The notes beneath the pieces are model-generated. The model did no database searches. It had not been told where the DNA came from and was given only the letters and a program-made list of their open reading frames with translations. Shown here piece by piece: positions 2,799 to 2,996 of a stretch of 4,015 bases of DNA. The position numbers and the translations under genes were made by a program. Positions within the stretch are counted from its first letter, which is position 1. Every line of letters begins with the position of its first letter. This DNA comes from a virus (lineage: Duplodnaviria > Heunggongvirae > Uroviricota > Caudoviricetes). The stretch is from IMG/VR virus record IMGVR_UViG_3300029518_000091, positions 1 through 4,015 of that record; one strand, 5' to 3'.

Positions 2799-2873
2799 CA
2801 CTCGAATCTCCCGAATCAGTTTGCTAAAATCAAACACACTTTCTCCTTTGACTTTTCCAGAGTCAGAAAACAC

Positions 2874-2913
2874 AAAACCCCGCTTGGTGCCAACAAACGG
2901 GGTTTTTACTTTT
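2874..2913. terminator. Bidirectional intrinsic-terminator-like hairpin (AAAACCCCG-loop-CGGGGTTTT) with U-runs on both strands
   Basis: Plus strand: AAAACCCCG (2874-2882), 15-nt loop, CGGGGTTTTT (2898-2907), then ACTTTTATTCTC. On the minus strand the same stem is followed by UUUUGUGUUUUC. The GC core stem is 5 bp, extendable by A:U pairs. Located in the AT-rich insert between R and the small ORF. Confidence 0.5.
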
Positions 2914-2996
2914 ATTCTCTTAGTTTTTGTCAGTTCGCAGGATTTCGTGTTATCCGTCCGTGTGAGCAAACCGCATTTTTCAGCAAAATATTCTGC

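What the first reader, a model, noticed from the sequence alone, without database searches (positions are those of the whole stretch)
2799..2996. AT-rich insert with a bidirectional terminator between R and Rz; possible antisense-RNA/type I toxin-like arrangement
The ~300 bp between the endolysin stop and Rz is much more AT-rich than the flanking genes (hand count about 39% GC for 2861-2930 versus about 65% for 2401-2460, approximate). It carries a hairpin with U-tracts on both strands (2874-2913). This looks like a horizontally inserted module. On the late strand the terminator would stop non-antiterminated transcripts after R. On the plus strand it could terminate a short antisense RNA overlapping the 5' region of the small-ORF mRNA, the layout seen in type I toxin-antitoxin pairs such as hok/sok. 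I could not find a convincing plus-strand promoter, so the antisense idea is speculative.
Basis: partly seen in the sequence, partly recalled or inferred. Interest (0 to 1): 0.5.

Follow-up and report, generated by a model that had tools for sequence, protein, structure and literature searches.

The report
Antisense small RNA in prophage lysis cassette
Between the cell-wall enzyme gene and the spanin genes of this E. coli prophage lies a small mobile cassette: a two-way transcription stop signal, a 45-residue membrane-protein gene, and most likely an unannotated ~75-base antisense RNA that covers that gene's ribosome-binding site. About one in six complete E. coli genomes carry this cassette.

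Summary
There are 298 bp between the R stop (2997) and the Rz start (2698), at 42% GC against about 55% in the flanks. A 13-bp hairpin (2874-2906) has T-tracts on both strands.

The interval has two parts. Positions 2907-2996 are a conserved 3' spacer that travels with R. The hairpin, a leader and a real 45-aa membrane-protein gene (GTG 2837 to 2700, PHROG 6632) form a mobile cassette. The gene's stop overlaps the Rz ATG. In Salmonella phage SEN34 the same cassette sits between two baseplate genes that overlap in relatives.

Its predicted start lies on the ORF's GTG. It would give a 71-77 nt antisense RNA covering the Shine-Dalgarno sequence and ending at the hairpin. The motif is kept in all 11 diverged lineages, including at synonymous sites.

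Published RNase E-CLASH reads from O157 Sakai show such an RNA in a homologous Sp4 cassette. It is on the antisense strand, starts 6-7 nt after the homologous -10, ends in GGGGUUUUU and overlaps Hfq sites.

Type I toxin-antitoxin membership is not shown: no toxin promoter, no homology, toxicity untested. I rate it a new member of the cis-antisense RNA kind.

The parts
2997..3530 (-). R, an endolysin of 177 aa. The N-terminal hydrophobic stretch looks like a signal-anchor-release (SAR) type; this is my reading and was not tested.
   Evidence: Pfam Phage_lysozyme, E = 1.3e-23. RefSeq annotates it as 'lysozyme' or rrrQ.
2907..2996 (-). Conserved AT-rich 3' spacer that is inherited with R (38.9% GC). 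It contains an 8-codon mini-ORF (2950-2976) with no Shine-Dalgarno sequence.
   Evidence: About 88% identical in VT2-Sakai and other Stx phages that carry ant downstream, and about 71% identical in Salmonella phage SPN3UB. GC.
2874..2906 (.). Bidirectional intrinsic-terminator hairpin. The A-tract and T-tract are part of the stem. The late-strand U-tract is 2864-2873 and the plus-strand U-tract is 2903-2920.
   Evidence: energies and z-scores. (5 pairs with compensatory changes). (usually 3-7 kcal/mol more stable on the late strand because of G-U pairs). The Sakai CLASH read ends in GGGGUUUUU on the antisense strand.
2838..2873 (-). Leader of the small ORF. It has a short stem-loop (2861-2865 pairing with 2849-2853) and the Shine-Dalgarno sequence AAGGAG (2843-2848).
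   Evidence: Read from the sequence and from the fold. A related leader, CCTTG-N7-CAAGGGAGAAC, precedes homologous ORFs in other phages.
2700..2837 (-). Gene for a 45-aa single-pass membrane protein (VFDFSKLIREIRVMAEKLSTWKFILIWLVFVIMASGYFIGQIRWW). Its stop overlaps the Rz ATG (ATGA). An internal Shine-Dalgarno sequence GGGAG (2808-2812) precedes the invariant Met14 (ATG 2796-2798), so a 32-aa form is also possible.
   Evidence: PHROG 6632, E = 6e-30, full length. Annotated in some records as WP_000459345.1. 35 homologues, all Enterobacterales. Codon-position differences of 216:121:337 in codons 14-45; L224 against L225 gives 0:0:11.
2802..2830 (+). Candidate sigma-70 promoter of the antisense RNA: -35 TCGAAT (2802-2807), 17-nt spacer, extended -10 TGC-TAAAAT (2822-2830). 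Predicted start at 2836-2838.
   Evidence: Scores 12.7 bits and is the top site in the 390-nt region. Only 0.18% of 1107 control gene starts score as high at that position. TGCTAAnAT is invariant in 11 diverged lineages, including three synonymous sites, and the rare Arg codon CGA is also invariant.
2837..2913 (+). Predicted cis-antisense small RNA of about 71-77 nt. It has the anti-Shine-Dalgarno sequence CUCCUUU (2843-2849), a first stem-loop and the terminator hairpin.
   Evidence: Folds at -22.8 kcal/mol, z = -3.9. A homologous RNA is seen in vivo in the Sakai Sp4 cassette at chromosome plus strand 1184766-1184864, bound by RNase E and overlapping Hfq sites. No Rfam family matches.
2231..2698 (-). 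Rz (inner-membrane spanin, 155 aa) with Rz1 embedded at 2293-2478. Translation is coupled to the small ORF.
   Evidence: Pfam Phage_lysis, E = 1.7e-49. ORF list.

Best explanation
The interval is the junction between R and a mobile small-gene cassette in the Q-dependent late operon of a lambdoid prophage.

On the late (minus) strand the order is:
- R;
- a conserved ~90-nt 3' spacer;
- an intrinsic terminator hairpin;
- a ~35-nt leader with a strong Shine-Dalgarno sequence;
- a 45-aa membrane-protein gene whose stop overlaps the Rz start.

On the plus strand, an extended -10 promoter inside codons 3-12 of that gene fires back towards R. It makes a ~75-nt RNA that is perfectly complementary to the start codon edge, the Shine-Dalgarno sequence and the leader. 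That RNA ends at the same hairpin, which therefore works as a terminator in both directions.

Inferred mechanism:
1. In the lysogen only the antisense RNA is made. The late-strand terminator stops any RNA polymerase not modified by Q that has run through S and R.
2. The antisense RNA masks the ribosome-binding site, or triggers cleavage, of any transcript that leaks through. The membrane protein stays off.
3. After induction, Q-modified polymerase reads through the hairpin. Convergent late transcription swamps and occludes the antisense promoter, and the small protein is translated together with Rz and Rz1.

Shown here: the anatomy, its conservation, its mobility, the coding signature, and the existence of the antisense-strand RNA in a homologous cassette.

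Inferred: promoter activity in this exact variant, the regulatory outcome, and what the protein does.
For: Hairpin. It is real and under selection. It keeps an A-tract upstream and a T-tract downstream in all small-ORF cassettes. The ant-type cassettes have a different hairpin with no upstream A-tract, which I read as unidirectional.

Antisense promoter.
- It is the top-scoring site in 12 of 12 representative cassettes. The predicted start falls on the ORF start codon, or on the GTG of the main ORF in type D.
- The tool's own scan finds TAGTCA-18-TATACT as the only promoter-like site in the type A cassette, in the same geometry.
- Control: 0.18% of 1107 comparable gene starts score as high.
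- TGCTAAnAT is invariant in Escherichia, Salmonella, Citrobacter, Yersinia, Brenneria, Symbiopectobacterium and Providencia copies. The rare Arg codon CGA, which supplies TCG of the -35, is also invariant.
- Third-position divergence is 0.22 in codons 2-13 against 0.50 in codons 14-45.
- A Dryocola homologue with a different N-terminus lacks both the hairpin and the promoter region.

In vivo evidence. RNase E-CLASH Table EV2 of PMC5286369 lists plus-strand fragments 1184766-1184813, 1184788-1184842 and 1184841-1184864 in Sakai Sp4. There are 34 hairpin hybrids in 2 replicates, both halves flagged as overlapping Hfq sites. The reads match the strand antisense to endolysin and Rz. The 5' boundary is 6-7 nt after the -10 hexamer, and the 3' end is GGGGUUUUU.

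Mobility. SEN34 carries hairpin, leader, ORF and a new Shine-Dalgarno sequence exactly between the V stop and the W start, which overlap as TAATG in EKP1 and yong1. K-12 Qin has R abutting Rz.

No late-strand promoter lies upstream of the ORF.
Against: - No transcript data exist for this exact (type B) variant. The in vivo reads come from a type D homologue whose promoter hexamers differ (TGGACA-18-TATACT).
- The -35 matches only 3 of 6 positions. The prediction relies on the TG extension.
- Promoter conservation is confounded by conservation of the N-terminal peptide and of translation-initiation signals. The third-position test gives only p of about 0.03.
- The hairpin carries G-U pairs that exist only in the late-strand RNA. 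It is 3-7 kcal/mol weaker on the plus strand in most lambdoid variants.
- The RNA is absent from the Hfq-CRAC list of candidate sRNAs.
- Repression of the small ORF by the RNA is entirely inferred.
Confidence: 0.62

Rival explanations
1. The hairpin is only a late-strand feature: an ordinary R 3'-UTR with a terminator or RNA-stabilising hairpin, followed by an ordinary small late gene. The plus-strand promoter-like motif is a by-product of AT-rich N-terminal codons, and in this variant no functional antisense RNA is made.
For: G-U pairs favour the late strand. A late-strand hairpin with a U-tract follows the R spacer in every cassette type, including ant-type cassettes whose hairpin looks unidirectional. 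The -35 is weak. There is no EcOnc entry at this position.
Against: The motif lies in the top 0.2% of control gene starts. It is kept at synonymous sites over 11 lineages. A plus-strand RNA with matching ends exists in the Sakai homologue.
Confidence: 0.2
2. The cassette is a true type I toxin-antitoxin module. The 45-aa membrane peptide is a toxin and the antisense RNA is its antitoxin. The pair stabilises the prophage or aborts infection.
For: The protein is small, with a single membrane-spanning segment. The antisense RNA covers its translation start, as in symE/SymR. The cassette moves as a unit between unrelated phage modules.
Against: There is no promoter for the toxin mRNA, so the ORF depends on late-operon read-through. 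It is translationally coupled to Rz. Pfam, NCBIfam and PADLOC give no match, and it has no homology to Hok, Ldr, Ibs, TisB or similar families. Toxicity was not tested.
Confidence: 0.15
3. The lysogen-expressed RNA is the selected product and acts beyond its own cassette. Either it is a superinfection-exclusion antisense RNA that pairs with and destabilises the late transcript of incoming phages carrying the same cassette, as STnc6030 does in BTP1. Or it is an Hfq-dependent trans-acting sRNA on host targets, as AgvB, AsxR and HnrS are.
For: Both halves of the Sakai hybrid overlap Hfq sites, and the RNA ends in a U-tailed terminator. It is oriented against the late genes, as other prophage sRNAs are (PMC4104026; PMC13502914). 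STnc6030 sets the precedent (PMC7067206). The nucleotide-level unit from hairpin to codon 13 is better conserved than the rest of the ORF (67% against 44% invariant sites).
Against: No trans target was identified. The only intermolecular CLASH partner in the held part of the table is rRNA. The ORF downstream of codon 14 is clearly under protein-level selection, so the cassette is not just an sRNA gene.
Confidence: 0.2
4. The conserved hairpin and leader are mainly a recombination linker. They would be a shared boundary sequence at which lambdoid phages swap cassettes between R and Rz, with no regulatory role of their own.
For: The same spacer, hairpin and leader precede at least four different downstream cassettes (types A to D). 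Homology breaks at or in the hairpin in ant-type phages.
Against: A mere linker would not show compensatory stem changes. It would not be carried into myovirus baseplate operons together with the ORF.
Confidence: 0.08

Closest known systems
symE/SymR of E. coli (type I toxin-antitoxin pair with a cis-antisense RNA). The description of SymR is from my own knowledge.
   Same: The antisense promoter lies inside the first codons of the target ORF. A ~75-nt RNA covers the start codon and the Shine-Dalgarno sequence.
   Different: symE has its own SOS-regulated promoter and encodes a soluble 113-aa protein. Here the target is a 45-aa membrane peptide with no promoter of its own, embedded in a phage late operon. 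There is no sequence homology.
P22 sar RNA (targets ant) and P22 sas RNA (targets sieB/esc). The sas switch is cited in PMC7067206; the details of sar are from my own knowledge.
   Same: These are phage-encoded short antisense RNAs made from a promoter inside the target gene. They mask the gene's ribosome-binding site. For sas, this shifts translation to an internal start. The present ORF also has a conserved internal Shine-Dalgarno sequence and Met14.
   Different: The loci differ (immI and sieB, not the lysis cassette). There is no Rfam match or other homology. The switch between start codons is only a hypothesis here.
hok/sok family
   Same: A small membrane peptide is paired with an antisense RNA against its 5' region. 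The family is found on mobile elements and prophages.
   Different: There is no mok-like reading frame, no fold-back mRNA architecture, no own promoter and no Hok homology.
STnc6030 of Salmonella prophage BTP1 (PMC7067206)
   Same: It is a lysogen-expressed RNA antisense to late genes.
   Different: STnc6030 is about 500-786 nt, lies over tail genes, and is shown to exclude superinfecting phage. This RNA is about 75 nt, lies in the lysis cassette, and its function is untested.
Morons of lambdoid phages in the sense of Juhala and Hendrix. The definition is cited in PMC4104026 and otherwise from my own knowledge.
   Same: It is extra DNA of different base composition inserted cleanly between two late genes.
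   Different: A classic moron has its promoter upstream and its terminator downstream of the gene, in the sense orientation. Here the terminator is upstream and the only promoter points backwards.

Membership tests
Intrinsic (Rho-independent) terminator, bidirectional | A GC-rich stem-loop is followed directly by a U-tract, on each strand. | tested here: met
   Late strand: 13-bp stem then UUUUGUGUUUU. Plus strand: 9+3 bp stem then UUUUUACUUUU.
Intrinsic (Rho-independent) terminator, bidirectional | The stem is maintained by compensatory changes. | tested here: met
   5 of 10 pairs change on both sides while keeping the pair, in 17 sequences.
Intrinsic (Rho-independent) terminator, bidirectional | An RNA 3' end forms at the U-tract in vivo. 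| tested here: inconclusive
   Seen only for the antisense strand of the Sakai Sp4 homologue, where the read ends in GGGGUUUUU. There are no data for this window or for the late strand.
Type I toxin-antitoxin system | A small hydrophobic protein of fewer than about 60 aa with one membrane-spanning segment. | tested here: met
   45 aa, with a hydrophobic stretch at about residues 21-41 read from the sequence. The coding signature is clear.
Type I toxin-antitoxin system | An antisense RNA overlaps the toxin's translation-initiation region. | tested here: met
   Promoter and terminator layout. The RNA is observed in a homologous cassette. For this exact variant it remains a prediction.
Type I toxin-antitoxin system | The toxin mRNA has its own promoter, forming an autonomous two-promoter module. 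| tested here: not met
   No late-strand promoter lies between the terminator and the ORF. The best late-strand sites score 6-8 bits at inconsistent positions inside the ORF.
Type I toxin-antitoxin system | Homology to a known toxin family (Hok, Ldr, Ibs, TisB, ShoB, Zor, DinQ, Fst, SymE). | tested here: not met
   No match in Pfam, NCBIfam or PADLOC. The only match is PHROG 6632, of unknown function.
Type I toxin-antitoxin system | The protein is toxic when expressed, and the RNA neutralises it. | not testable with these tools
   This needs expression experiments.
Moron (autonomous accessory unit in a late operon) | It is inserted between genes that are adjacent in relatives, and its composition differs from theirs. 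| tested here: met
   SEN34 compared with EKP1 and yong1. Qin rrrQ and rzpQ overlap. GC is 42% against 55%.
Moron (autonomous accessory unit in a late operon) | A sense-strand promoter lies upstream of the gene and a terminator lies downstream. | tested here: not met
   The terminator is upstream of the ORF. There is no sense promoter. The ORF stop overlaps the Rz start.
Known RNA family (Rfam 15, including sar, Sok, SymR, IstR and prophage sRNAs) | The sequence reaches a family's gathering score. | tested here: not met
   Only sub-threshold matches driven by the terminator: rimP leader at 27.5 bits against 47, and BTnc005 at 25 bits against 175.

The most novel reading that the evidence does not exclude
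The cassette is an antisense-RNA-controlled dual-start gene.
- The upstream GTG with AAGGAG gives a 45-aa form.
- The conserved internal GGGAG-N9-ATG gives a 32-aa form that lacks the amphipathic N-terminus.
- The antisense RNA masks only the upstream start. It would therefore set the ratio of the two membrane-protein isoforms, as P22 sas does for SieB/Esc and as the dual start does for lambda holin and antiholin.

Because the ORF is translationally coupled to Rz, the pair could be an unrecognised regulator of the spanin step of lysis or of superinfection exclusion. It would be present in hundreds of lambdoid and Stx prophages.
Probability: 0.15. Interest if true: 0.75.

Novelty: new member of a known kind. 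Interest (0 to 1): 0.6.

Why it matters
The lysis cassettes of lambdoid and Shiga-toxin prophages are treated as well understood: holin, endolysin, spanins. This locus adds three things to them:
- a conserved, mostly unannotated small membrane-protein gene;
- a probable Hfq- and RNase E-associated antisense sRNA;
- a two-way terminator placed between R and Rz.

The type B cassette alone occurs 1251 times in 899 of 5426 complete E. coli genomes. Related cassettes occur in Salmonella, Citrobacter, Yersinia, Brenneria and Providencia, and in myovirus baseplate operons.

If the RNA is active, it is one more lysogen-expressed prophage sRNA in pathogenic E. coli. It would also give a handle on how leaky late-gene expression is kept harmless. 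[quoted passage not shown]

Tried and rejected
- Rfam scans of the window and of three homologous loci gave no family. Only terminator-like sub-threshold matches appeared.
- Pfam, NCBIfam and PADLOC gave nothing for the small proteins.
- The only plus-strand promoter the tool scan reported in the finding region, CTGACC-18-CATAAT at 2715-2744, is not conserved in SPN3UB or SEN34. I dropped it.
- I first thought the window carried a homologue of the prophage sRNA HnrS/EcOnc12. This was wrong. NC_002695.1 and NC_002695.2 coordinates differ by about 134 nt at 1.78 Mb. The HnrS segment (L008 about 2150-2215) is absent from the window and is replaced by the TonB_C lipoprotein cassette.
- The EcOnc list of Hfq-bound candidate sRNAs has no entry between R and Rz in any Sakai prophage. 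EcOnc33 lies in the gene for the sialic-acid deacetylase (ECs_1527).
- Covariation of the short leader stem-loop is not clean. The type B stem is shifted by 3 nt relative to the CCTTG/CAAGG stem of the other types.
- Searches for ECs1094, WP_000459345 and phrog_6632 found no paper.
- No supplements are held for the StxS paper (PMC7547250) or the HnrS paper (PMC13502914), so their mapped transcript 5' and 3' ends could not be read.
- The SPN3UB-type cassette matched only SPN3UB, FSL SP-016 and short stretches of four Escherichia phages in the phage collection, so I found no route to published Salmonella prophage transcriptomes.

Full report
**Context.** The window is the late region of an E. 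coli lambdoid prophage. All late genes are on the minus strand:
- a YdfR/DUF1327 gene (3581-3925);
- the endolysin R (2997-3530);
- Rz (2231-2698) with embedded Rz1 (2293-2478);
- a TonB_C-like lipoprotein gene (1566-1907);
- an HNH gene, and the 3' end of an ORF that the identical RefSeq locus L001 annotates as the small terminase subunit.

The same DNA is 100% identical in several complete E. coli chromosomes.

**Check of the observation.** The gap between R and Rz is 298 bp (2699-2996). It is 42.3% for the whole gap, against about 55% for R and Rz.

The hairpin spans 2874-2906.
- On the late strand it has 13 pairs and a 7-nt loop and is followed by UUUUGUGUUUUCUG. It folds at -18.9 kcal/mol, z = -4.06.
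- On the plus strand it has one C-A mismatch and is followed by UUUUUACUUUUAUU. It folds at -15.6 kcal/mol, z = -2.96.
- In 17 diverged homologues, 5 of 10 stem pairs change on both sides while staying paired.

**What lies in the gap.** There are two parts with different histories.

The first part, 2907-2996, is a conserved AT-rich spacer that stays with R. It is about 88% identical in VT2-Sakai and many Stx phages, where homology to the window stops at about 2902 and an ant (antirepressor) cassette follows. It is about 71% identical in Salmonella phage SPN3UB.

The second part is the hairpin, a ~35-nt leader and a small ORF. The ORF starts at GTG 2837, five nucleotides after a strong AAGGAG (2843-2848). 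It ends at 2700, and its TGA overlaps the Rz ATG (ATGA).
- The ORF encodes 45 aa, matches PHROG 6632 over its full length (E = 6e-30, function unknown), and is annotated in only some genomes.
- It is a real gene. In codons 14-45 the differences among seven lineages fall 216:121:337 on codon positions 1, 2 and 3. The Brenneria and Symbiopectobacterium copies differ by 0:0:11.
- Homologues are confined to Enterobacterales.

**The cassette is mobile.**
- In Salmonella phage SEN34 the same hairpin, leader and ORF, plus a new Shine-Dalgarno sequence, form a 241-bp insert. It sits exactly between the stop of the baseplate spike gene and the start of the next baseplate gene. In phages EKP1 and yong1 those two codons overlap as TAATG.
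- Two viral contigs carry it in other tail modules.
- In K-12 Qin, rrrQ and rzpQ overlap with no spacer at all.
- Behind the conserved R spacer and hairpin, lambdoid phages carry several alternative cassettes. Type A is a 60-aa ORF (PHROG 1115). Type B is the window. Type C has another leader. Type D has an 8-codon upstream ORF followed by a 50-aa ORF.
- The Sakai Sp4 type D protein has the N-terminus of type A and the IRWW C-terminus of type B. I therefore read these small proteins as one mosaic superfamily.

**The plus-strand promoter.** A position-weight scan that includes the TG extension finds TCGAAT (2802-2807), a 17-nt spacer, then TGC-TAAAAT (2822-2830). It scores 12.7 bits. The predicted start is at 2836-2838, on the GTG of the small ORF.
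- In all 12 representative cassettes, the best site on the strand antisense to the late genes in a 390-nt region has this geometry. The 12 are six lineages of the 45-aa ORF, three of type A and three of type D.
- For type A the tool's own scan reports it as the only promoter-like site in 600 nt.
- The result is not explained by AT-rich gene starts. Of 1107 starts of long ORFs preceded by a Shine-Dalgarno sequence in the same phage loci, 0.18% reach 12.7 bits and 1.2% reach 8.7 bits at that position.
- The core TGCTAAnAT is invariant in every lineage found: Escherichia, two Salmonella types, Citrobacter, Yersinia, Brenneria, Symbiopectobacterium, Providencia and three viral contigs. It is held at three synonymous sites. 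The rare Arg codon CGA, which supplies TCG of the -35, never changes, while neighbouring synonymous sites vary freely.
- Third-position divergence is 0.22 in codons 2-13 and 0.50 in codons 14-45.
- A Dryocola homologue that keeps only the membrane-spanning part lacks the N-terminal codons and the hairpin together.

The predicted RNA (about 2837 to 2907-2913) carries the anti-Shine-Dalgarno sequence CUCCUUU. It folds into a first stem-loop plus the terminator at -22.8 kcal/mol, z = -3.9.

**Evidence from experiments by others.** Table EV2 of the RNase E-CLASH study of O157:H7 Sakai (PMC5286369) lists three fragments under the feature 'unknown':
- chromosome 1184766-1184813, with read ACCTCCCTACCCATAATTCTCC...;
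- an intramolecular hybrid of 1184788-1184842 with 1184841-1184864, with read CCAACAAACGGGGTTTTT joined to AAAAACAAAACCCCGCTTGCTG. It has 34 unique hybrids in two replicates, and both halves are flagged as overlapping Hfq-binding sites.

This position is the type D cassette of prophage Sp4, between endolysin ECs_1096 and Rz ECs_1092, both on the minus strand. The reads match the plus strand, so they are antisense to the late genes. As a check on strand reporting, the EcOnc12 read from the same table matches the minus strand, as listed. The 5' boundary lies 6-7 nt after the homologous -10 hexamer TATACT. The 3' end is GGGGUUUUU at the hairpin. The Sp4 hairpin differs from the window's only in one loop base.

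So an antisense RNA of about 95-100 nt with the predicted ends exists in a sister cassette, and the hairpin yields a 3' end on the antisense strand in vivo. For the window's own variant this remains a prediction.

**The late strand.** The hairpin is usually 3-7 kcal/mol more stable on the late strand, because inner stem positions use G-U pairs that become C-A on the other strand. The ant-type cassettes have a different hairpin (GAGGCACC-GTAAT-GGTGCC followed by UUUGUCAUUUCUG) at the same place, without an upstream A-tract. A late-strand stop signal after R is therefore a general feature of these phages, and bidirectionality is specific to the small-ORF cassettes.

No late-strand promoter lies between the hairpin and the ORF. 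The ORF can therefore only be expressed by read-through. By established knowledge of lambdoid late transcription, that is what Q-modified polymerase does.

**Most likely mechanism.** This is inferred from the anatomy.
1. In the lysogen the antisense RNA is made. The terminator blocks polymerase that lacks Q, and the RNA masks the Shine-Dalgarno sequence of whatever leaks through.
2. After induction, Q-dependent read-through and convergent transcription override both controls. The small membrane protein is then made together with Rz and Rz1.

What the protein does is unknown. Its presence in baseplate operons argues against a strictly lysis-specific role.

**Comparison with known systems.**
- The layout works like symE/SymR and like the P22 sar and sas antisense RNAs.
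- It resembles hok/sok only loosely.
- It fails two defining features of type I toxin-antitoxin systems that I could test: an autonomous toxin promoter, and homology to a known toxin family. A third feature, toxicity, cannot be tested here.
- It fails the classic moron layout, because the terminator is upstream and the only promoter is antisense.
- It matches no Rfam family.

I file it as a new member of the known kind 'prophage cis-antisense sRNA paired with a small membrane-protein gene'.

**An open point.** A conserved internal Shine-Dalgarno sequence (GGGAG, 2808-2812) precedes the invariant Met14. The Brenneria and Symbiopectobacterium copies differ by 1:2:2 in codons 2-13 but by 0:0:11 in codons 14-45. 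Protein-level constraint on the first 13 codons therefore looks relaxed. A 32-aa form may be made, and an antisense RNA that masks only the upstream start could set the ratio of the two forms. This is the most novel reading the evidence leaves open.

**Prevalence.** The type B leader and ORF occur 1251 times in 899 of 5426 complete E. coli genomes, mostly without annotation.

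Noticed in passing
window 1389-2041 (TonB_C-like lipoprotein gene 1566-1907, minus strand): Compared with Sakai Sp9, the window replaces the segment downstream of Rz with a cassette encoding a 113-aa lipoprotein with a TonB C-terminal domain (Pfam E = 1e-14). In Sp9 that segment carries the prophage sRNA HnrS/EcOnc12 (L008 about 2138-2383). The window has no HnrS.
   Followed up: partly
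window 2950-2976, minus strand: The conserved R 3' spacer holds an 8-codon mini-ORF (ATG-N18-GGA-TAA). Its length and ends are kept in the window, VT2-Sakai, Sakai Sp4 and SPN3UB, while the inner codons vary. It has no Shine-Dalgarno sequence. I cannot explain why this ~90-nt non-coding spacer is about as conserved as R itself.
   Followed up: no
L004 (VT2-Sakai) about 1105-1250 minus strand; L006 (PhiR12_2) 1171-1302; L008 1327-1473 (ECs_5722): A second, unrelated family of 44-48-aa membrane peptides (PHROG 4906, MSDKLITL...) sits immediately upstream of Rz in ant-type and type A cassettes. It is not annotated in VT2-Sakai. A small membrane-protein gene just before Rz seems to be a general feature of these lysis cassettes.
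   Followed up: partly
L005 (SPN3UB) about 1803-1913, minus strand: SPN3UB has a further unannotated 36-aa hydrophobic ORF (MSKRDVSALCFLMAAAVAISGNDGWGWLIFAGIIIL). It overlaps the lysozyme stop and lies ahead of the conserved spacer.
   Followed up: no
L220 (Sakai Sp4) 5767-5790: The type D cassette carries an 8-codon upstream ORF (MGREVLSL). Its stop overlaps the GTG of the main 50-aa ORF. RefSeq annotates only a 37-aa form from the internal ATG (ECs_1094).
   Followed up: partly
Sakai chromosome 1184766-1184813 and rrnC-1 4738282-4738352 (PMC5286369 Table EV2): The 5' part of the Sp4 antisense RNA forms CLASH hybrids with the same rRNA stretch (GTGTGTTGTTGGGTAGGGGA) that also hybridises with HnrS/EcOnc12. 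This could be an artefact of rRNA abundance or a shared pairing motif.
   Followed up: no
window 2767-3054, plus strand: A 95-aa ORF antisense to the spacer and small gene is annotated as a hypothetical protein in phage CP-1639 (EC_CP1639_38). It runs through the terminator hairpin and is almost certainly spurious.
   Followed up: no
L157, L164 and L176 (viral contigs), just after the R spacer: There is yet another cassette type. A different hairpin (AAAACCCCGGCTGGGGGAACAGTCCGGGG) is followed by TTGACA-N13-TATAAT. That spacer is too short for a normal sigma-70 promoter.
   Followed up: no
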